A program made the translations under genes and the position numbers. DNA of 51,099 bases from a phage: the sequence record NC_129764.1, one strand, 5' to 3'. Shown here in pieces: positions 9,992-39,357 of this stretch. Position 1 is the stretch's first letter. The number at the start of each line of letters is the position of its first letter. Under the pieces are notes generated by a model that was given only the letters and a program-made list of their open reading frames with translations, ran no database searches and was not told the DNA's origin.

Positions 9992-11560
9992 ATGATTCAA
10001 TGGGAAGAACTCGACGCAACTCAGAAGTTAGCGATCAAGAAAATGAGCGAGGCCAATTTCGAAAAAATGATTCGGATCTGGTTCCAGCTTATGCAGGCGC
10101 AGCAGTTCCAGCCTAACTGGCATCACCTTTACCTATGCCACGAAGTGGAGGAAATTATTGCAGGCCGACGCGGGAATACTATCTTTAACGTCACGCCCGG
10201 TTCCGGTAAGACTGAGGTGTTCTCAATCCACCTTCCGGTTTACGCGATGCTCAAGTGTAAGAAGGTGCGAAACCTTAACGTGTCGTTTGCCGATAGCCTG
10301 GTTAAGCGTAACAGTAAGCGAGTGCGTGAGATTATCAGCAGCAACGAGTTCCAGGAGCTATGGCCCTGTAAGTTCGGCACATCAAAAGACGAAGAGATGC
10401 AAGTCCTTAACAGCGACGGTAAGGTCTGGTTCGAACTAATCTCCGCAGCGGCTGGCGGTCGAATTACAGGTTCGCGTGGCGGCTACATGACGCCAGGATT
10501 CTCCGGGATGGTAATGCTCGACGATATAGACAAGCCTGACGATATGTTCTCAAAGGTTAAGCGTGAGCGTACTCACATGCTATTAAAGAACACCATACGA
10601 TCCCGTCGTATGCACAACGAGACGCCGATTATCGCAATCCAGCAGCGACTGCACGCGCAGGATTCAACTTGGTTTATGATGAATGGAGGTATGGGTATTG
10701 AGTTTGATCAGATCTCGATTCCGGCACTAGTAACTGAGGAATACGGAAAGACGCTTCCTGACTGGTTACAACCATACTTCGAGCGCGACGTTTTGTCGTC
10801 TGAGTATGTGGAATTGGATGGAGTTAAGCATTACTCATTCTGGCCCAGCAAGGAGAGTGTTCACGACCTATTGGCTTTGCGCGAAGCGGACCAGTACACC
10901 TTTGATTCTCAGTATCAACAGAAGCCGATAGCGCTTGGTGGCTCCGTGTTTAACTCGGAGTGGTGGACTTATTACGGAAGCAGCCTTGACGCTGACGAGC
11001 CAGATCCGGGTAAATATGATTACCGTTTTATCACCGCTGATACCGCTCAGAAGACAGGTGAGCTAAACGACTACACAGTCTTTTGTTTATGGGGTAAGAA
11101 AAACGATAAGGTTTACTTTATCGACGGCATTCGCGGAAAGTGGGAAGCGCCTGATATGGAGAAACAATTTACCGCCTTCGTGAATCAGGCATGGAGGCAC
11201 AATAAATCAATGGGTGTGCTTCGCAAAATCTACGTGGAAGATAAGGCGAGCGGGACGGGCTTGATTCAGAACTTAAGGAAAAAGACTCCGATCTCAATCA
11301 CACCATTGCAGCGTAACAAAGATAAAGTTACCCGAGCTATGGATGCTCAGCCAGTAATTAAGGCCGGGCGCGTGGTTCTTCCAGAAGAGCACCCTATGCT
11401 TGCGGAAATCATCGCAGAACATAGCGCCTTCACTTACGATGACACCCATCCGCATGATGATATCGTCGATAACTTCATGGATGCGGCGAACATCGAATTG
11501 CTGACCATTGATGATCCTATCGAGAGAATGAAGCGACTCGCCGGGATGGTTAAGCGGTAA
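9992..11560 (+). CDS. terL: terminase large subunit (522 aa)
   Basis: Walker A-like TPGSGKT; size and position before portal. Confidence 0.85.
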   Translation: MIQWEELDATQKLAIKKMSEANFEKMIRIWFQLMQAQQFQPNWHHLYLCHEVEEIIAGRRGNTIFNVTPGSGKTEVFSIHLPVYAMLKCKKVRNLNVSFADSLVKRNSKRVREIISSNEFQELWPCKFGTSKDEEMQVLNSDGKVWFELISAAAGGRITGSRGGYMTPGFSGMVMLDDIDKPDDMFSKVKRERTHMLLKNTIRSRRMHNETPIIAIQQRLHAQDSTWFMMNGGMGIEFDQISIPALVTEEYGKTLPDWLQPYFERDVLSSEYVELDGVKHYSFWPSKESVHDLLALREADQYTFDSQYQQKPIALGGSVFNSEWWTYYGSSLDADEPDPGKYDYRFITADTAQKTGELNDYTVFCLWGKKNDKVYFIDGIRGKWEAPDMEKQFTAFVNQAWRHNKSMGVLRKIYVEDKASGTGLIQNLRKKTPISITPLQRNKDKVTRAMDAQPVIKAGRVVLPEEHPMLAEIIAEHSAFTYDDTHPHDDIVDNFMDAANIELLTIDDPIERMKRLAGMVKR

Positions 11561-17931: not shown

Positions 17932-18299
17932 ACTACTCACAGATCGAAAGGATGGCTCGCAAAGGCGTGGCTTTCTTCACCGATGCATCAAGACCTATGA
18001 ACCTGATAAAGCAAGGTGAATACGGATATGATGAAAACGGATTCGAGATCCCACCGATGGAACAGGTTATTCCAATATCCGGCGCGACGCGAAGACCGAA
18101 CGCGCGTGAGATTGACGGGGAGACTATCCGCGCCTCAGACCTTTTGGGGATCTTCAATAACGACCATGAAATAAACGAAGGTGACTATATAGAGATTGAC
18201 GGCGTTCGTCATGTTGTCGTTGATGCTCGCCCGGTTCAGGCGTCACTGAAACCAGTCGCCTATCGCCCAGTATTGCGGAGGGTATCAGTAGGTGGCTAA
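17919..18299 (+). CDS. head-tail joining protein (126 aa)
   Basis: Synteny; overlapping start. Confidence 0.5.
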   Translation: MPPMNYSQIERMARKGVAFFTDASRPMNLIKQGEYGYDENGFEIPPMEQVIPISGATRRPNAREIDGETIRASDLLGIFNNDHEINEGDYIEIDGVRHVVVDARPVQASLKPVAYRPVLRRVSVGG

Positions 18300-18735
18300 T
18301 TATCAGATTCGTAGATTTCAAGGTGAGATTGATGCGTGGATTAAGGCCGCTGAAAGCACGTTAGAACATTCCATTGAGATATTTGTAAGGGATGTTCACG
18401 ACGCGCTCGTTAGCCGTTCTCCCGTCGACACGGGGCGCTTTAAGGGTAACTGGCAGATAACTTTTAACGAAATCCCTAACTACGCATTAAATCGATACGA
18501 TAAAACTGGCGGCGTCGTCCGTAGTGAGGAGCAAGCCAAAACTTATGGCATGTTCAGCCGTGGGGGCGCGATAACATCCGTTCACTTCTCAAACATGTTG
18601 ATTTATGCAAACTCTCTTGAGTACGGTCATTCACAACAAGCACCAAACGGCGTCGTCGGGCTGGTTGCATTGAGATTGCGATCGTATATGGCAGACGCAA
18701 TAAAGCAAGCAAGGAGACAACAAAATGCACTATGA
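18292..18735 (+). CDS. tail completion protein (147 aa), GTG start
   Basis: Synteny. Confidence 0.5.
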   Translation: MANYQIRRFQGEIDAWIKAAESTLEHSIEIFVRDVHDALVSRSPVDTGRFKGNWQITFNEIPNYALNRYDKTGGVVRSEEQAKTYGMFSRGGAITSVHFSNMLIYANSLEYGHSQQAPNGVVGLVALRLRSYMADAIKQARRQQNAL

Positions 18736-19123
18736 GTTATCAGCGGCGGCGCGAGCCGCCTTTCTGTCGAAGTATAGAGACTTTCCTCACTACATGGAAA
18801 ACAGGAACTTTACACCACCGAAGGATGGCGGCATGTGGCTAAGGTTCAACTACATTGAAGGGGATACGCTTTATCTATCAATTGACAGAAAGTGTAAATC
18901 TTACATTGCAATAGTTCAGATCGGAGTTGTGTTCCCTCCTGGTTCCGGCGTTGATGAGGCAAGATTGAAAGCAAAAGAGATTGCTGATTTTTTCAAAGAT
19001 GGTAAAATGCTTAACGTTGGTTATATTTTCGAAGGTGCAATCGTGCATCAAATTGTTAAACACGAAAGCGGATGGATGATTCCGGTTCGCTTTACAGTAC
19101 GAGTAGATACAAAGGAGACTTAA
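18725..19123 (+). CDS. tail terminator-like protein (132 aa)
   Basis: Synteny directly upstream of major tail gene. Confidence 0.5.
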   Translation: MHYELSAAARAAFLSKYRDFPHYMENRNFTPPKDGGMWLRFNYIEGDTLYLSIDRKCKSYIAIVQIGVVFPPGSGVDEARLKAKEIADFFKDGKMLNVGYIFEGAIVHQIVKHESGWMIPVRFTVRVDTKET

Positions 19124-19124
19124 T

Positions 19125-19793
19125 ATGCACTTACCAAATGGCGCGCAAATTTTCGTGGAAACCTCTCGCGGAGAAGAGATCGAGGCGACCGCTGTCACTA
19201 ACGCAAAAAATCCTGTTGCTACAGTTGCATCTAAGGGCGACTTGGCAAAAGGTGATTACGTTATTGTAACTCAGTCAACTTGGGCTAAGATGGTTAGTCG
19301 AGTACTTATTGTTACCGATGCTCAGGAAACAAGCATTACTCTTGCTGGAATTGACACTACTGATACTCTTGTTTTCCCGGCTGGCGGTACGATGAGCTTT
19401 GCAAAAGTTACTGGCTGGACTGAGATTCCTTGCGTACAGGAGATTGGTCAGGACGGCGGTGAGCAGCAGTACTACACTTATCAGTGTTTGTCAGACGATA
19501 AAGAGCAGCAGATCCCGACGTTTAAATCTGCAATCTCGCTAACTTACACCTTCGCGCACGAATTTGATAACCCGATCTACCCTATTCTGCGTAAGCTGGA
19601 TTCTTCTGGTCAGGTAACTGCGGTTCGTATGTATGTTCCAAAAGCGAACGAGATGCGCATGTGGGCTGGCATCTTGTCTTTTAACGACATTCCGTCTACG
19701 CAAGTAAACGAAATGGAAACGGTACAACTAGCCGTATCCCTGAAGGGTGATTTCACTTTCGTTTCATCCTCTCTGGCATCACCTGGTGCCTAA
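19125..19793 (+). CDS. major tail protein (222 aa)
   Basis: Position before chaperone and tape measure; followed by terminator. Confidence 0.6.
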   Translation: MHLPNGAQIFVETSRGEEIEATAVTNAKNPVATVASKGDLAKGDYVIVTQSTWAKMVSRVLIVTDAQETSITLAGIDTTDTLVFPAGGTMSFAKVTGWTEIPCVQEIGQDGGEQQYYTYQCLSDDKEQQIPTFKSAISLTYTFAHEFDNPIYPILRKLDSSGQVTAVRMYVPKANEMRMWAGILSFNDIPSTQVNEMETVQLAVSLKGDFTFVSSSLASPGA

Positions 19794-19805
19794 ATCATAT
19801 CCACA

Positions 19806-19826
19806 GGGGGCTTGCGCCCCCTTATT
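19806..19826 (+). terminator. intrinsic terminator
   Basis: gggggcttgcgccccc stem followed by ttatt. Confidence 0.6.
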
Positions 19827-19866
19827 CATTTCTGTAAAATCATCGTATCAACTTTTCACTATTCTC

Positions 19867-19886
19867 TTTTAACAAAAAGTGCTATT
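19867..19886 (-). promoter_or_regulatory. dyad motif copy, reversed (plus strand TTTTAACAAAAAGTGCTATT)
   Basis: Sequence match directly abutting the RBS aaccaatcaggag of the tail chaperone gene. Confidence 0.55.
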
Positions 19887-19906
19887 AACCAATCAGGAGA
19901 AATATC

Positions 19907-20224
19907 ATGGCTAAATTTAATTTCGTTCTTGGTCAACTTCCAGACTTCAAACTTCCAGTCACCTTCACCATGCCTAACGGTGAAGATGCAACGATCATTT
20001 TCACTGTACGCCACCTTTCCAGTAAAGAAGTTCAGGATATGTATGCCAACCAGGGAGAAATGAACGATAGCGAGTTCATTACCAAGATCGCGTCAGGATG
20101 GAACCTTGAAGAAGAATTTAACGAAGAAAATGCGCGAAAACTGGTTCAGTATTATCCTTCAGCAGCGTACAATCTGACAGCGACTTACATCAAGGCTCTC
20201 GCCGGACACCGCGCAAAAAACTAA
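19907..20224 (+). CDS. tail assembly chaperone (G-like, 105 aa)
   Basis: Position between major tail and tape measure; ends at slippery site. Confidence 0.65.
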   Translation: MAKFNFVLGQLPDFKLPVTFTMPNGEDATIIFTVRHLSSKEVQDMYANQGEMNDSEFITKIASGWNLEEEFNEENARKLVQYYPSAAYNLTATYIKALAGHRAKN

Positions 20225-20541
20225 AAAGGGCGGTCTATCTGTTATATCAGAAGCCGCCAACAGAGGAACAATTGCGATCGGTTGGCTTAAGTCTTTCCGA
20301 CTATGAAGACGAGGAGCCTGAAACGATAATTGGCGACGCTGAAATGGTGAAGGCTTGGAATGTTTTTACATCAATGCTCACCCAGTGGAGAAGTTCAGGC
20401 GCTGGCGCTTACGGTCTTGATTATAATGTTTTGCCTATGTTGTTTAAAATCTATAAAATAGAAGATGAAGAACTGGCATTGCAGGACGTTAGGATCATGG
20501 AAGCGAAAGCGCTTGAAATGATTGCTAAGCAGAATAACTAA
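19907..20541 (+). CDS. tail assembly chaperone -1 frameshift fusion product (GT-like)
   Basis: The -1 frame is open from 20110 to 20541 and overlaps the G-like ORF; heptamer A_AAA_AAC at 20215-20221. Confidence 0.5.
20215..20221 (+). other. putative -1 programmed ribosomal frameshift slippery heptamer AAAAAAC
   Basis: X_XXY_YYZ pattern in zero frame just before the G-like stop; conserved strategy in tailed phages. Confidence 0.5.
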
Positions 20542-20542
20542 G

Positions 20543-20563
20543 CCGCCGTTTGGCGGTTTTTTT
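20543..20563 (+). terminator. weak intrinsic terminator
   Basis: ccgcc-gttt-ggcgg stem followed by T7. Confidence 0.5.
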
Positions 20564-20580
20564 GTATATAAGGGGGTTAT

Positions 20581-23454
20581 ATGGTTGATAAGGTAGCAGG
20601 TCTATCGCTTGACGTTGATGTGTCGACAGTACAGCGCGCCGTCAAGTCATTGAAAGAGTTTTCAAAAGCTAACGACCAAGCCGCTGACTCTATGGGGTCT
20701 TTAATCAATGAGGCCGAGGTTGCAAAACAGAAGGCTAAAGAACACGCTGAGCAACTTAAGCGCCAGCGCAAAGAGTACGAGGCTGTAGAAAAGGCAATCG
20801 ATCCTACAGTATCAAAAATGGAAAGGCTGAAGATTGCATCTCAGCAGCTTGATAAACTCTGGCAAAAGGGCATTGTTCCAGATGAAACATTTTTCCGTTT
20901 GGGTGAAATGCTGGACATGCAAAATGCAAAACTTGCTCGCAGCCGGGCCATGCTTACTGAAGAGGGGCAGGCAGCATTGCAGGAAGCGAAAGCAAAAGAG
21001 CAGGCAGCAGCGAAAAACAAAGCGTTCATGGATTCCCTTAACAGTCAGGTTAACGCTATTGGCAAAACTCACGCAGAGTTAATGGAACTGAAAGCGGCTC
21101 AGCTTGGGCTATCAAATGAAGCAGCGCCACTGATCGCAAAACTGAAAGAGCAGGGTCGAGCCATGAATGCCGCAGGTATTAGCGCGGGGCAATATAGGCA
21201 GGCAATGCGAATGCTTCCTGCACAGATTACCGACGTCGTTACATCTCTTGCGTCCGGTATGCCAGTTTGGATGGTTGCCATCCAGCAAGGCGGTCAAATT
21301 AAGGACTCGTTCGGAGGGATCGGGAATACGTTTAAGGTATTGCTCAGCTATATTAATCCGGTCACAGTTGGCGTTGGTGTTCTTGTCGGCTCTTTAGGAC
21401 TTCTTGCGAAAGCTGGTTATGACTCTTACAAGTCAATAACTGATATGCAGAAGGCTCTTGTTGAGACTGGAGGTTACGCAGGAGTCACGGCTGAAGAACT
21501 TGATTCTGTTGCTAAAAAGGTGGCTCAGACGAGCAACTCAACAATTTCAAGCATTCGTGAGATTGTTACTGAACTTGCCAGTACGGGGAAGTATACGCGA
21601 GAGCAGATTCAGAACATCACAAAGGCTACCGCTGAGTGGTCGACAGCAACCGGAAAATCAGCAAGTAAAATCATCGCTGAGTTCGATAAAATCGCAAGCG
21701 ATCCTGTAAAGGGTCTGGCTAAACTTAACGAGCAATACAACTTTTTAGAAAAAGGTCAACTGACATATATCGATACGCTAAGCCGTACTAAGGGTGAAAC
21801 GGAGGCAGTGTCTGAAGCAACAAAATTATTCGCCGAAGTTATGGAGAAGCGAATGAAGTCGATCGCAGACAATGCCACTCCTCTTGAAAAAATGTGGAAC
21901 GATATTAAGCAGTGGGCCTCTGATGCGTGGGGGTGGGTTGGGGATCATACTCTCGGAGCATTAAACCTGATTATTGACGTAGTTCAGGGTACGGTAATTC
22001 AGGTAAAAATGATTCTGGCGAAGGGCGATGAGTACATCTCAAACTTTATAGCCTCTGCAATTAAGGCTACGCAGTCTCTGCCTGGAATGAGTGATTTCGG
22101 CGCTGATGTACTAAAGGAACAGGAGAATATTGTAAAAAGTTCTCGTGACAACTACGATCAGTTAGCTTCAGAGCTTGATGCCATCAACGCCCGTGTTGAA
22201 AAAGGTGAGATGGGATACATTGAAGCAATGAAGCAGCGCCGTACTCTTGAAAAGCAGTATAGCCAGGAAACTAAGGACGCTATCAAGGAAGAAGCTGAAG
22301 AGATCGAAAAGCGAAACCGTGAACGAAATAAGCAGTCGAAAATTTTACGCTCACCTACAGAGCAATTCGATAAGGAGTTAATTTCACTCAAAGCACAGCT
22401 TAAGGTTTTGCAGGAGCACAAGGAGATAGGGCAAAAACTATCAGCACAGAGAAAGGCGCTGTTTACGACTGAGGCTACAATTGCCGTTCTTAGAGAAGCT
22501 AGTTCTAAGCGTCAGTTATCTGCGGAAGAAAAAGCACTACTTGCAAACCAGGAGAAAGTTTTAGAGCTTGCGAAACAAAAGGCCGAGATTGGCGATCAGA
22601 TTGTTAAGCAGCAGCAGTTGAACGCTCTTACTGATAAATCACTGAAGTTTGTCAATGATTTGACGGCAGCTACAGAGCAGCTAAACGCGTCTCGCGGGAT
22701 GAGCACCCGAGAAATGGAGCGACAAGCGGAGTTGGCTAAGATCACCACTGACTATATTAATGCGGGTGGCAGCGAAGGGGATGAAAAACTCCAGAACATG
22801 ATCAAGGCGCAAAATGATTACTATGCTGCGGAAGATGCCAAGCGTGCTGACTGGTTGGCAGGTGCTGAAAGCGCATTTGCAGATTACGGCGATTCCGCAA
22901 TGGATATGTATGGTAACGTATATGATATAGCGTCAAGTTCACTTAACGGAATGAGTGATATGATGACCCAATTCCTGACTACAGGTAAGGCAAACTTTGA
23001 GGACTTTGCGAAAAACATCATTAGCATGATTATAAAGATGATTGCTCAGATGGTAATCTTCAATACGATCTCAGGCATGATGGGCGGTAAGACGTGGAGC
23101 TTTGCTGGAGTGGCGTCGTCTGGTGCTTCTGTGGCATCACAGGCAACCCCTACGCCTGCCGCCTCCGGTTTTAGGTCTTTATCATCGGGCGTTGCTGTTA
23201 CCTCGCTTGCTGCCGCGGCTGGTAGTGTGGCAACATCTGGATTTAACGCATCTAAAGCAGCGCCGAAGGCAGTAAACCAATCAGCAGGTGGGACGGTCGT
23301 TGACGTTAGGGGCATGGAGGTTAAAGTTGACAATGGTTCAGATCCGAGAGGAATTTCTCAGGGCGTAGAGATGATGTTCAAAAAAATGATTCGCGAATCT
23401 TGTTCTCAGGGCGGTGAGGTTTACAATTACATTCAGGAAAAAACAGGAGGCTAA
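20581..23454 (+). CDS. tail tape measure protein (957 aa)
   Basis: Very long alpha-helical, coiled-coil-rich ORF with Gly/Ser/Ala-rich C-terminal region. Confidence 0.9.
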
Positions 23455-37338: not shown

Positions 37339-39357
37339 GTGACAATTAACATCAAAAAGCAAATCGCATTACTTGGCGAGGACTATATAAAACGCACTCA
37401 AGAACGATTCACTGTTGGTGAGGTAGTTCCGTATCCGTACCAGGTTGTTGCTTATGCTGAGATCGCAAAACGCCTATCAAATTATGAGCATCCATTCTTT
37501 GTTAAAGCGTCAGTATCGGCGGGTAAGACCATCATTTTTGCTATGGTTGCAAAGCAGTGTCAAAAAATGGGCTTGAAAATGCTCGTGCTGGCACGCCAGG
37601 GTGAGATTGTCGATCAGGATAGTGAAGAGATCGACAATTTCGGAGTGACTAACTCTATATTCTCAGCGTCACTTGGAATCAAGTCTTGCTACTTCCCGAT
37701 CGTGGTAGGCTCTGAGGGCACTGTTGCAAATGGTTTAAATAATGAGTTGGCTGATTTTGTCCCTCACGTAATCGGGATAGATGAATGTCACCAGGTGGAT
37801 TGGGAAGACCTTGCGCAAGCCATAGACGGAAAGGAAACAATGGAACAGATGCGGGGAGAGAAAGGGAAAATTATCATGGACGGTGATACTCCTCTGATTG
37901 GTAATGATGGAAAGCCTCTTCTTGGAACTAAGCGCAGTCAGTACACGATCGTAATCATGGAAATGATGCGACGCTGTAAAGAGGTTCACGGTCACGACCT
38001 TAGAATATTTGGTATGACTGGATCTGAATTTAGGGGTGTAGTTCCTATTCTTGTTGAGAATCCAAAGGCGTTAGGCTTCTGGCGTGAGCGCGTTACTGAT
38101 ATAGACACCAACTACCTTATTGAGTTTGGCTCAGTCGTTCCGACTATATTCGGCTCGACGGACGGAGTTCACTACGATCTTGATAAATTTAAGGCATCAA
38201 GCGAGGATGGGGTACAGGACTTCACAGAGAAAGATATGAAGGCAATGGAAGATGAGATCCTTCATGATAAATCTCTTACCCAGCGAATCATGCAAATGGT
38301 TGCCAAAAAGGCTGAAGAGCGTAACGCAGTTCTGATTACATGCGCCGGGGTGCGTCACTGCAAAGAGGCGGCGGCGGCACTACCACCAGGAAGCACATAT
38401 GCAATTATTACTGGCGACACAGACACTAAAACGCGCAAGAAGATTCTTGATGATGTGAGGGCCGGGAAAATTAAATATACCTTTCAGGTCATGGCGCTAA
38501 CTACTGGAGTTAACGTTCCAAATTGGGATTTTAGTGTAATACTTCGCAAGATAGGATCTCTTACCTTGCTGATTCAGCTTTTGGGTAGGGGTATGCGACT
38601 TCTTAAATCCTGGCAGGTTGCTGAAGGAATGGTTAAGCAAGATCATCTGGTATGGGATTTTGCTGGTACGATGGACGAGTTGGGGCAGCTTTATTTCGAT
38701 CCTATACTTGAGCAGGCTCAGTTCCAGAAGCGATTTGAGAACGGAAAAGACCCGAAAACGTGTCCGAAATGTGGTTGCGTAAATAGCTTCTATGCTCGCC
38801 GATGCGTTAACGTTATCGACGGTGAGCGCTGTGATCATTTCTGGACTTCTCAGATTTGCGAGGACCAGGTTGATGAGCGCACTGGGAAAATTCTTGTTAA
38901 AGGGTGCGGTGCCGAGAATGACGTTGTGGCCAGAGTCTGTCGCTGTTGCGATGTTTCTCTTGTTGATCCTAACCTTAAGTTATCCGGTAAGGCGTACACT
39001 AAGAATGACTGGTACGAGGTCAAGAATTTTGAGGTTACGTTAACCAAAAACCAAAAAGGCGTGATATACAAATACACGCTTATTAACGATGAAGGTGATG
39101 AGTTCAAAGCGTATGAAAAATTCTTCCCTGAGTCAGACTCTAAGATCTGCGGTACTCTATGGAAAACGAAAGGCGTACTTCCTCATGTGTCAGATCCTAA
39201 AATGCGTCGCTACTTTATCGGAATGAAGAATGCTATCAAGATCGTGCAATACTCACATCATATAGCGCATCCGGTACGCGTCACCCATAGACGCAACCAG
39301 AAGAAAGAAGATATTATTTCACGCAAAGACTTCGGTATGGAGGATATCCCGGAATGA
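37339..39357 (+). CDS. SF2 DNA helicase (672 aa), GTG start
   Basis: Walker A SAGKT, DECH box GIDECHQ, C-terminal Cys clusters. Confidence 0.8.
   Translation: MTINIKKQIALLGEDYIKRTQERFTVGEVVPYPYQVVAYAEIAKRLSNYEHPFFVKASVSAGKTIIFAMVAKQCQKMGLKMLVLARQGEIVDQDSEEIDNFGVTNSIFSASLGIKSCYFPIVVGSEGTVANGLNNELADFVPHVIGIDECHQVDWEDLAQAIDGKETMEQMRGEKGKIIMDGDTPLIGNDGKPLLGTKRSQYTIVIMEMMRRCKEVHGHDLRIFGMTGSEFRGVVPILVENPKALGFWRERVTDIDTNYLIEFGSVVPTIFGSTDGVHYDLDKFKASSEDGVQDFTEKDMKAMEDEILHDKSLTQRIMQMVAKKAEERNAVLITCAGVRHCKEAAAALPPGSTYAIITGDTDTKTRKKILDDVRAGKIKYTFQVMALTTGVNVPNWDFSVILRKIGSLTLLIQLLGRGMRLLKSWQVAEGMVKQDHLVWDFAGTMDELGQLYFDPILEQAQFQKRFENGKDPKTCPKCGCVNSFYARRCVNVIDGERCDHFWTSQICEDQVDERTGKILVKGCGAENDVVARVCRCCDVSLVDPNLKLSGKAYTKNDWYEVKNFEVTLTKNQKGVIYKYTLINDEGDEFKAYEKFFPESDSKICGTLWKTKGVLPHVSDPKMRRYFIGMKNAIKIVQYSHHIAHPVRVTHRRNQKKEDIISRKDFGMEDIPE

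What the first reader, a model, noticed from the sequence alone, without database searches (positions are those of the whole stretch)
20110..20541. Programmed -1 ribosomal frameshift producing a GT-like tail assembly chaperone fusion
The ORF 19907-20224 ends just after the heptamer A_AAA_AAC (20215-20221), a classical X_XXY_YYZ slippery sequence. The -1 frame is open from 20110 through 20541, so a shift here would fuse the chaperone to the 89-aa ORF annotated separately at 20272. A GC-rich inverted repeat follows (20228-20251). This matches the conserved frameshift strategy between major tail and tape measure genes in long-tailed phages, and it means 20272-20541 is probably not independently initiated.
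Basis: partly seen in the sequence, partly recalled or inferred. Interest (0 to 1): 0.5.

Follow-up and report, generated by a model that had tools for sequence, protein, structure and literature searches.

The report
T1-type phage tail-chaperone frameshift site

Summary
The window is a T1-like coliphage (Tunavirus, Drexlerviridae; 99.7% identical to vB_EcoS_SA30RD). ORF 19907-20224 is a Pfam Phage_TAC_4 tail assembly chaperone. It lies between the tail tube gene (19125-19793) and the tape measure gene (20581-23454). Its last two sense codons form the in-frame heptamer A_AAA_AAC (20215-20221), followed at once by TAA.

The -1 frame runs to 20541 and encodes a DUF1799 domain. The conceptual 211-aa fusion matches phrog_17368, a family of already-fused proteins, end to end (E 8e-87).

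- **Site conserved:** of 67 related loci analysed (69 fetched), 56 carry the same heptamer plus stop. Two distant relatives (27-35% identity) carry G_GGA_AAC plus stop at the same place.
- **Coding before any start:** 20225-20271 varies with third-codon-position periodicity in the -1 frame.
- **No own start:** 59 of 62 distinct loci have no start codon that could reach the conserved N-terminal T peptide. TTG 20272 is not conserved.

Two coordinates need correcting. The -1 frame opens at 20122, not 20110. The hairpin is 20229-20258 (-15.4 kcal/mol, z -4.0); it lacks covariation and is missing in several lineages.

Relatives already annotate this frameshift (Stevie 2015, Skenny 2019, U136B 2021). 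Verdict: interpretation supported, already known, low interest. No experiment confirms it for this phage.

The parts
19125..19793 (+). Tail tube (major tail) protein gene, upstream neighbour
   Evidence: Pfam Phage_tail_3 (TTP), E 1.9e-70.
19805..19832 (+). Terminator-like hairpin plus T-rich tail, between the tube gene and the chaperone gene
   Evidence: Consensus scan. The equivalent site is annotated as a terminator in the SA30RD record. Function inferred.
19895..19899 (+). Shine-Dalgarno-like AGGAG, 7 nt before the ATG of the chaperone gene
   Evidence: Read from the sequence.
19907..20224 (+). G-like tail assembly chaperone ORF (105 aa, 11.9 kDa); zero-frame product
   Evidence: Pfam Phage_TAC_4, E 5.5e-37, full length. 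phrog_569 and phrog_17368. Mass.
20215..20221 (+). Slippery heptamer A_AAA_AAC in X_XXY_YYZ register; it forms the last two sense codons of G
   Evidence: The identical heptamer is found in 56 of the 67 related loci analysed.
20222..20224 (+). Zero-frame stop TAA directly abutting the heptamer
   Evidence: A stop (TAA, TGA or TAG) abuts the heptamer in every locus that has a canonical heptamer, including the two distant G_GGA_AAC loci.
20221..20541 (+). -1 frame extension ('T' part, 106 aa plus stop), read only after the shift. The G+T fusion is 211 aa, 24.1 kDa.
   Evidence: Pfam DUF1799, E 1.3e-11. The fusion matches phrog_17368 at positions 1-212 of 213, E 8.3e-87. Third-position periodicity of variation in 20225-20271. 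Mass.
20229..20258 (+). Hairpin 7 nt downstream of the heptamer; candidate frameshift stimulator
   Evidence: -15.4 kcal/mol, z -4.0, 0 of 200 shuffles as stable. Present in Tunavirinae and Tempevirinae. Absent in Braunvirinae, Rogunavirus, Webervirus and L046-L048. No convincing covariation.
20272..20274 (+). TTG used by annotators as the start of the separate 89-aa ORF; not a conserved start
   Evidence: It is TTA in T1 and CTT in vojen. The first possible start in the T frame varies from codon 4 to codon 50 among 62 loci.
20540..20566 (+). Terminator-like hairpin plus T run, between the T stop and the tape measure start
   Evidence: Consensus scan. Annotated as a terminator in SA30RD. Function inferred.
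20581..23454 (+). Tape measure protein gene, downstream neighbour
   Evidence: Pfam TMP_2, E 7.7e-75, and Tape_meas_lam_C, E 7e-25.

Best explanation
A programmed -1 ribosomal frameshift makes two tail assembly chaperones from one start codon.
- Most ribosomes translate 19907-20221 and terminate at TAA 20222, giving the 105-aa G-like chaperone.
- A minority slip back one base on A_AAA_AAC (20215-20221). They then read CTA at 20221 and continue to 20541, giving a 211-aa G-T fusion of 24.1 kDa.
- By analogy with lambda gpG/gpGT, the shared G part coats the tape measure protein. The T part (DUF1799) recruits the tail tube protein, and the fixed low GT:G ratio is set by the slip frequency.

Shown here from sequence: the site, its register, its conservation, -1-frame coding before any start codon, and the lack of a conserved start.

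Inferred: that slippage actually occurs, its efficiency, tandem versus single-tRNA slippage, any stimulatory role of the abutting stop codon or the 20229-20258 hairpin, and the binding partners.
For: - **Identity and synteny:** Tunavirus, 99.7% identical to SA30RD. Order is tail tube gene, chaperone pair, tape measure gene.
- **Chaperone family:** G is Phage_TAC_4, E 5.5e-37. The -1 extension is DUF1799, E 1.3e-11.
- **Site conservation in annotated phages:** AAAAAAC plus stop is conserved at the G end in 12 of the 13 fetched Drexlerviridae loci L002-L014, which fall to about 65-70% nucleotide identity.
- **Site conservation in IMG/VR:** 43 of 52 loci have the same site. Two distant loci (35-37% identity to the T query by tblastn; 27-35% T and 25-28% G in the alignments) have G_GGA_AAC plus TAG or TGA at the same position.
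- **Coding signature:** in 20225-20271, mean column entropy by -1-frame codon position is 0.46, 0.37 and 1.25. In bona fide G coding sequence it is 0.71, 0.51 and 1.68.
- **Conserved first residues:** the first T residues (L1, A4) are invariant even in the distant loci.
- **No start codon:** 59 of 62 distinct loci have no ATG, GTG or TTG in the T frame between the upstream stop and the first T codon. In 21 of 62 the first downstream start is not before codon 41.
- **Fusion family:** the conceptual fusion aligns in one stretch (residues 1-210) to phrog_17368 positions 1-212 of 213, E 8.3e-87.
- **Annotated homologues:** Stevie and Skenny carry joined frameshift CDSs of matching length. Their papers say so (PMC4319613, PMC6763657), as does the U136B paper (PMC8104045).
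- **Hairpin:** 7 nt downstream, z -4.0.
Against: - No experimental evidence exists for this phage or, as far as I could find, for T1 itself.
- A_AAA_AAC is reported to be much less shift-prone in E. coli than A_AAA_AAG (PMC5009743). This still fits a low GT:G ratio.
- The heptamer alone is not statistically unusual.
- The hairpin lacks covariation and is absent in several lineages.
- Rogunavirus and Webervirus relatives lack the canonical heptamer (GCA AAG GTC TAA; GCA AAA GTY TAA), so the full heptamer is not indispensable to the family.
- This phage has a TTG with an SD-like GAGGA at 20272 that could add an independent product.
Confidence: 0.88

Rival explanations
1. The downstream ORF is a separate gene, initiated on its own at TTG 20272 (or ATG 20344), as most GenBank records annotate it. 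The heptamer is incidental.
For: - In the window and its closest kin, TTG 20272 is preceded by GAGGA at a 5-nt spacing.
- Most Tunavirus records annotate two separate ORFs.
Against: - TTG is TTA in T1 and CTT in other genera.
- Annotated starts differ from record to record, or the ORF is left unannotated.
- The first possible start ranges from codon 4 to codon 50.
- The 17 codons upstream of TTG are conserved as protein and vary mainly at the third codon position.
- 59 of 62 loci have no start that could reach them.
Confidence: 0.05
2. The frame change is made by RNA polymerase, not the ribosome. Transcriptional slippage on the A6 run inserts one A in some mRNAs, which yields the same fusion frame.
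For: The site is a run of six A. An inserted A would give the same reading frame, with junction ...AKK-LKR... (read from the sequence).
Against: - From established knowledge, productive transcriptional slippage in bacteria usually needs longer homopolymer runs, about 8-9 or more.
- Distant relatives use G_GGA_AAC. Rogunavirus and Webervirus have only A3 or A4 at the site, yet keep the same two-frame architecture.
Confidence: 0.04
3. Chance juxtaposition or decaying remnant: the -1 ORF is not expressed as a fusion and has no function tied to G.
For: The heptamer alone is expected about 0.1 times in the overlap.
Against: - The site, its register and the -1 coding potential are conserved over four or more subfamilies and in two distant relatives.
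- A family of fused proteins already exists.
Confidence: 0.02

Closest known systems
Phage lambda gpG/gpGT programmed -1 frameshift (Levin, Hendrix & Casjens 1993; Xu, Hendrix & Duda 2004, 2013, 2014; summarised in PMC5009743)
   Same: - Gene order is tube gene, chaperone pair, tape measure gene.
- One start codon gives a short product and a -1 frameshift fusion.
[quoted passage not shown]
- Neither product is expected in virions.
   Different: - Different Pfam families: lambda is Phage_TAC_2 plus Phage_tail_T; this phage is Phage_TAC_4 plus DUF1799.
- No detectable sequence homology (hhalign probability 0.1% and 1.5%).
- From my own knowledge of lambda, its heptamer is G_GGA_AAG and its G stop lies a few codons after the site. 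Here the heptamer is A_AAA_AAC and the stop abuts it.
Citrobacter phage Stevie (Tlsvirus, KM236241) tape measure chaperone, joined CDS 10144..10775
   Same: - Homologous genes: G 54% and T 64% identical.
- Identical AAAAAAC-TAA site and same downstream hairpin type.
- The frameshift is annotated in the record and stated in the paper (PMC4319613).
   Different: Different genus and host. No TTG at a position with an SD-like motif. Also not verified experimentally.
Klebsiella phage Skenny (Webervirus, MK931444) tail assembly chaperone frameshift product, joined CDS 18116..18756
   Same: Homologous pair (47% identity in each part), annotated as a frameshift fusion (PMC6763657).
   Different: Its site is GCA AAA GTT TAA, with no X_XXY_YYZ heptamer. 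The MFE fold of its downstream 53 nt is a different structure from the window's hairpin, and the hairpin seen in its relative PWKp17 (GGGCTG/CAGCC) is not MFE-predicted for Skenny.
E. coli dnaX and IS-element -1 frameshift sites (A_AAA_AAG)
   Same: Both are Lys-codon-based -1 slippery sites read by E. coli ribosomes, with a downstream hairpin.
   Different: - The A-site codon here is AAC (Asn), reported to be far less shift-prone in E. coli than AAG (PMC5009743).
- No obvious upstream SD-like stimulator at 20195-20214.
Haloarchaeal virus HCTV-2 g-t frameshift
   Same: Uses A_AAA_AAC for the tail chaperone g-t frameshift (PMC5009743).
   Different: Archaeal host and unrelated proteins.

Membership tests
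G/GT-type tail assembly chaperone pair with programmed -1 frameshift (Xu et al. 2004 definition) | Located between the major tail (tube) gene and the tape measure gene | tested here: met
   Phage_tail_3 at 19125-19793. TMP_2 plus Tape_meas_lam_C at 20581-23454.
G/GT-type tail assembly chaperone pair with programmed -1 frameshift (Xu et al. 2004 definition) | Second reading frame lies in the -1 frame, is open across the end of the first ORF, and lacks a conserved start of its own | tested here: met
   -1 frame open 20122-20541. 59 of 62 loci have no upstream start, and downstream starts are not conserved.
G/GT-type tail assembly chaperone pair with programmed -1 frameshift (Xu et al. 2004 definition) | Canonical slippery heptamer X_XXY_YYZ in the zero-frame register inside the overlap | tested here: met
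   A_AAA_AAC at 20215-20221. It is the only such heptamer in the overlap.
G/GT-type tail assembly chaperone pair with programmed -1 frameshift (Xu et al. 2004 definition) | Site and two-frame architecture conserved among diverged relatives | tested here: met
   56 of the 67 loci analysed have the identical heptamer. Two distant loci have G_GGA_AAC. Two lineages have only A_AAR.
G/GT-type tail assembly chaperone pair with programmed -1 frameshift (Xu et al. 2004 definition) | First ORF belongs to a tail assembly chaperone family or fold | tested here: met
   Pfam Phage_TAC_4, E 5.5e-37. The fold itself could not be checked: single-sequence models had pLDDT 53.6 and 48.8, and no PDB relative was found.
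G/GT-type tail assembly chaperone pair with programmed -1 frameshift (Xu et al. 2004 definition) | Fusion protein is actually made at a low fixed ratio and is needed for tail assembly | not testable with these tools
   Needs western blot or mass spectrometry, and genetics.
G/GT-type tail assembly chaperone pair with programmed -1 frameshift (Xu et al. 2004 definition) | G part binds the tape measure protein; T part binds the tail tube protein | not testable with these tools
   Inferred from lambda only (PMC5009743).
Lambda gpG (PF06894) and gpT (PF06223) sequence families | Significant match to the lambda G and T profiles or sequences | tested here: not met
   The window proteins hit PF08748 and PF08809 instead. 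Lambda hits PF06894 and PF06223. hhalign probability is 0.1% and 1.5%. BLASTP found nothing.
phrog_17368 (T1-like fused chaperone proteins) | Full-length collinear match of the conceptual fusion | tested here: met
   Residues 1-210 match profile positions 1-212 of 213, E 8.3e-87.
-1 frameshift signals with a downstream stimulatory RNA structure | Stable structure 5-9 nt after the heptamer, supported by conservation or covariation | tested here: inconclusive
   Stable in the window (z -4.0) and in Tunavirinae and Tempevirinae. Absent in other lineages. 73% of cells paired, only 2 pairs with double changes, and a register slid by -1 scores as well.

The most novel reading that the evidence does not exclude
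In the T1 family the essential signal may not be the tandem heptamer. It may be a single-tRNA -1 slip on A_AAR (Lys) placed one or two codons before the stop, with the nearby stop codon as part of the signal (a 'shifty stop').
- This would explain why a stop abuts the heptamer in every canonical locus, including the distant G_GGA_AAC ones.
- It would also explain why Rogunavirus (GCA AAG GTC TAA) and Webervirus (GCA AAA GTY TAA) keep the fusion architecture after losing the A-site half of the heptamer.
Probability: 0.2. Interest if true: 0.35.

Novelty: already known. Interest (0 to 1): 0.13.

Why it matters
It matters mainly for annotation quality.
- Most Tunavirus records, including T1 isolates and this phage's nearest relatives, list two separate small ORFs with arbitrary starts, or omit the second one.
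- The correct model is one gene with a short product (105 aa) and a frameshift product (211 aa).

Tail assembly chaperones are also now known triggers of bacterial immune sensors: Avs17 (PMC12803255) and Schlafen pSlfn5 for T5-like phages (PMC13056530). Knowing both isoforms is therefore useful for T1-like phages used in defence screens and in therapy.

The comparative set gives a natural series of site variants (A_AAA_AAC, A_AAG_GTC, A_AAA_GTY, G_GGA_AAC; hairpin present or absent) for anyone measuring frameshift determinants in E. coli.

Tried and rejected
- **Protein homologue search:** The search for homologous proteins with the fusion returned only two T-frame ORF calls with arbitrary upstream starts. 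No natural in-frame fusions were seen there.
- **Structure prediction:** AlphaFold2 single-sequence models of the T and G parts were low confidence (pLDDT 48.8 and 53.6), so no fold search was run.
- **PDB searches:** sequence and profile searches found nothing.
- **Lambda comparison:** BLASTP and hhalign against lambda G and T showed no homology. There was only a weak 15-residue GL.Y.VL motif resemblance, E 0.035.
- **Other libraries:** NCBIfam gave no model. Rfam gave only a sub-threshold hit on the downstream terminator.
- **Hairpin covariation:** the test was not convincing.
- **Other heptamers with long -1 extensions:** those at 38884 and 38899 lie in a shadow frame of the real 672-aa gene 37339-39357.
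- **Literature:** the Xu 2004 and T1 genome papers are not held in the library. I therefore could not check whether T1 itself was listed there.
- **Distant relatives:** L065 has no match in the annotated phage collection.

Full report
**What the window is.** The region 19850-20600 is 99.7% identical to Escherichia phage vB_EcoS_SA30RD and 90% identical to T1. Both are Tunavirus, family Drexlerviridae. Around the finding, the + strand carries these genes:
- a tail tube gene at 19125-19793 (Pfam Phage_tail_3, E 1.9e-70);
- a 105-aa ORF at 19907-20224 (Phage_TAC_4 'phage tail assembly chaperone', E 5.5e-37, full length);
- an 89-aa ORF at 20272-20541;
- the tape measure gene at 20581-23454 (TMP_2 and Tape_meas_lam_C).

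The lambda-like tail tip genes follow.

**Checking the observation.** The sequence reads ...CGC GCA AAA AAC TAA at 20210-20224. AAAAAAC therefore sits at 20215-20221 in X_XXY_YYZ register, and the stop follows directly. ORF 20272-20541 is in the -1 frame, and that frame is uninterrupted from the heptamer to TAA 20539-20541.

Two details in the finding are wrong.
- The -1 frame has a TAA at 20119-20121, so it opens at 20122, not 20110.
- The inverted repeat is 20229-20258: GGCGGT/GCCGCC outer arms with an inner TCTG/CAGA stem. It is not 20228-20251.

The heptamer alone is not beyond chance. AAAAAAC occurs 24 times in the window against 15.4 expected. In-frame X_XXY_YYZ motifs occur at 0.0031 per codon, which predicts about 0.1 in the 34-codon overlap. 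The other heptamers with long -1 extensions are shadow frames of real genes.

**Comparative evidence.** I fetched annotated loci from Tunavirinae, Tempevirinae, Braunvirinae, Webervirus and an Erwinia phage. Nucleotide identity in this set falls to about 65-70%. I also fetched 52 IMG/VR loci with the -1-frame peptide as query. Of the 69 loci fetched, 67 were analysed; L033 and L043 were set aside because of an A-run problem described below.
- Of the 67 loci analysed, 56 have exactly AAAAAAC followed at once by a stop (TAA, twice TGA) at the end of the G homologue.
- Two distant loci, L065 and L066, have a different canonical heptamer, G_GGA_AAC, followed by TAG or TGA at the same position. They are 27-35% identical in T and 25-28% in G.
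- The peptide read in the -1 frame from the heptamer onward (KKLKRAVYL.YQKPPT...) is conserved. L1 and A4 of the T part are invariant even in the distant loci.

**Is 20225-20271 coding, and can it be reached without a shift?** This is the stretch between the G stop and the annotated TTG. Across 57 distinct sequences, mean column entropy by -1-frame codon position is 0.46, 0.37 and 1.25. Genuine G coding sequence just upstream shows the same third-position pattern (0.71, 0.51, 1.68).

In 59 of 62 distinct loci, including the window, there is no ATG, GTG or TTG in the T frame between the upstream in-frame stop and the first T codon. The first possible downstream start lies anywhere from codon 4 to codon 50, and in 21 loci not before codon 41. 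TTG 20272 is TTA in T1 and CTT in vojen.

Database records accordingly disagree. They give 89-aa, 65-aa or 54-aa ORFs, or no ORF at all. Two metagenomic gene calls start inside G. The conserved N-terminal part of T can therefore only be translated by ribosomes arriving from G in a shifted frame.

**The product.** The conceptual fusion is G residues 1-105 plus 106 residues from 20221-20538. It is 211 aa and 24.1 kDa, against 11.9 kDa for G alone. It carries Phage_TAC_4 followed by DUF1799. It aligns in one stretch (residues 1-210) to positions 1-212 of the 213-position profile phrog_17368, E 8.3e-87. That profile is a family of already-fused proteins. The shift uses the last two sense codons, so the whole of G is contained in GT.

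**Candidate stimulators.** A hairpin starts 7 nt after the heptamer. Its energy is -15.4 kcal/mol, z is -4.0, and none of 200 dinucleotide shuffles was as stable. Equivalent hairpins of -15 to -20 kcal/mol occur in most Tunavirinae and Tempevirinae sequences.

They are absent in Braunvirinae, Rogunavirus-like loci, Webervirus and the distant loci. They are also absent in L046-L048, which encode the same peptide KRAVYLFYQKPP with other codons. On a 38-sequence alignment, 73% of cells pair. Only two pairs show double changes, and a register slid by -1 scores as well. The hairpin is thus plausible but unproven.

The stop codon abuts the heptamer in every canonical locus. This is a family trait that may contribute; slow-to-decode A-site codons and 'shifty stops' are known to promote slippage (PMC5009743). 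That role is inference. I see no SD-like element upstream at 20195-20214.

**Rival explanations.**
- **Independent initiation.** TTG 20272 is preceded by GAGGA at a good spacing in this phage and its closest kin only. This cannot account for the conserved upstream codons. At most it adds a minor T-only product.
- **Transcriptional slippage on A6.** It would give the same frame. It is unlikely, because relatives with GGGAAAC, CAAAGG or CAAAAG keep the same architecture.
- **Chance.** It is excluded by the conservation described above.

**Comparison with known systems.** Functionally this is the lambda G/GT arrangement (PMC5009743, summarising Levin 1993 and Xu 2004-2014). In lambda, a G:GT ratio of about 30:1 is set by -1 slippage, the G part binds the tape measure, and the T part binds the tube protein.

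It is not a sequence relative of lambda G or T. Lambda hits Phage_TAC_2 and Phage_tail_T. hhalign probabilities against my G and T alignments are 0.1% and 1.5%.

The same frameshift in homologous genes is already annotated.
- Citrobacter phage Stevie has joined CDS 10144..10775 and the identical AAAAAAC-TAA site. [quoted passage not shown]
- Klebsiella phage Skenny has joined CDS 18116..18756 (PMC6763657).
- The E. coli phage U136B paper describes a chaperone encoded via a slippery sequence (PMC8104045).

A_AAA_AAC is reported as less shift-prone than A_AAA_AAG in E. coli, and it is used for g-t in haloarchaeal virus HCTV-2 (PMC5009743).

**Verdict.** The feature is already known for this phage family. 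The value here is corrective annotation: one gene with two products, instead of two ORFs. Interest is low.

The only mildly novel thread concerns two lineages that have lost the A-site half of the heptamer. These are Rogunavirus (GCA AAG GTC TAA) and Webervirus (GCA AAA GTY TAA). Together with the stop placed 0-1 codon after the site, this leaves room for a single-tRNA, stop-assisted slip as the family's core mechanism.

**What led nowhere.**
- The large protein search gave two hits.
- Single-sequence structure models were too poor to use.
- PDB, NCBIfam and Rfam gave nothing relevant.
- The Xu 2004 and T1 genome papers are not held in the library.

Noticed in passing
L060-L064 pos. ~1499-1510 (Rogunavirus/JK06-like: Sf12, e4/1c, C119, Jk06); L014 1836-1847 and L067 18431-18442 (Webervirus PWKp17, Skenny): These lineages lack the X_XXY_YYZ heptamer at the G end. 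They read GCA AAG GTC TAA and GCA AAA GTY TAA, keeping only an A_AAR tetramer one codon before the stop. They still conserve the -1 peptide K(G/S)L(K/R)RAVYL, and Skenny is still annotated with a joined frameshift CDS. This suggests a single-tRNA(Lys) slip in these groups.
   Followed up: partly
L033 (Citrobacter phage HCF1) and L043, around 1495-1510: The A run is 5 instead of 6 (GTAAAAACTAA), which puts T in the +1 frame relative to G rather than the -1 frame. HCF1 also has a second 1-nt deletion about 20 nt upstream. The likely cause is homopolymer sequencing error, but the A5 run is shared by two diverged genomes.
   Followed up: partly
window 19805-19832 and 20540-20566 (+): Terminator-like GC hairpins with T runs flank the chaperone pair: one after the tail tube gene, one between the T stop and the tape measure start. 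They are annotated as terminators in SA30RD. They may grade transcription from tube to chaperones to tape measure.
   Followed up: partly
L065 1498-1507 and L066 1372-1381 (IMG/VR contigs 3300031417_000015 and 2765236085_000002): These distant relatives of the pair (27-35% identity) use G_GGA_AAC plus TAG or TGA at the homologous position. L065 has no match in the annotated phage collection, so its taxon is unknown.
   Followed up: partly
window 20263-20274: GAGGA lies 5 nt before TTG 20272. It is present only in the window's close kin. It could allow a minor independently initiated 89-aa (10.1-kDa) T-only product in this sublineage.
   Followed up: partly
window T part residues 63-77 vs lambda T residues 54-68 (L069 1216-1650): There is a weak motif resemblance between AYGLDYNVLPMLF and FSGLTYTVLSLFF (hhalign E 0.035, probability 1.5%). 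This is a hint, not evidence, that DUF1799 and lambda Phage_tail_T might be remotely related.
   Followed up: no
L046-L048 pos. 1511-1545: These loci encode the same peptide (KRAVYLFYQKPP) as the hairpin-bearing phages, but with codons CGC GCC GTC that abolish the hairpin. This is a natural 'synonymous hairpin knockout' that could be used to test the structure's role.
   Followed up: no
window 38884 and 38899 (+): In-frame heptamers GGGAAAA and AAAGGGT have long -1 extensions, but they lie in a shadow ORF (38792-39043) of the real 672-aa gene 37339-39357. They are not frameshift candidates.
   Followed up: yes
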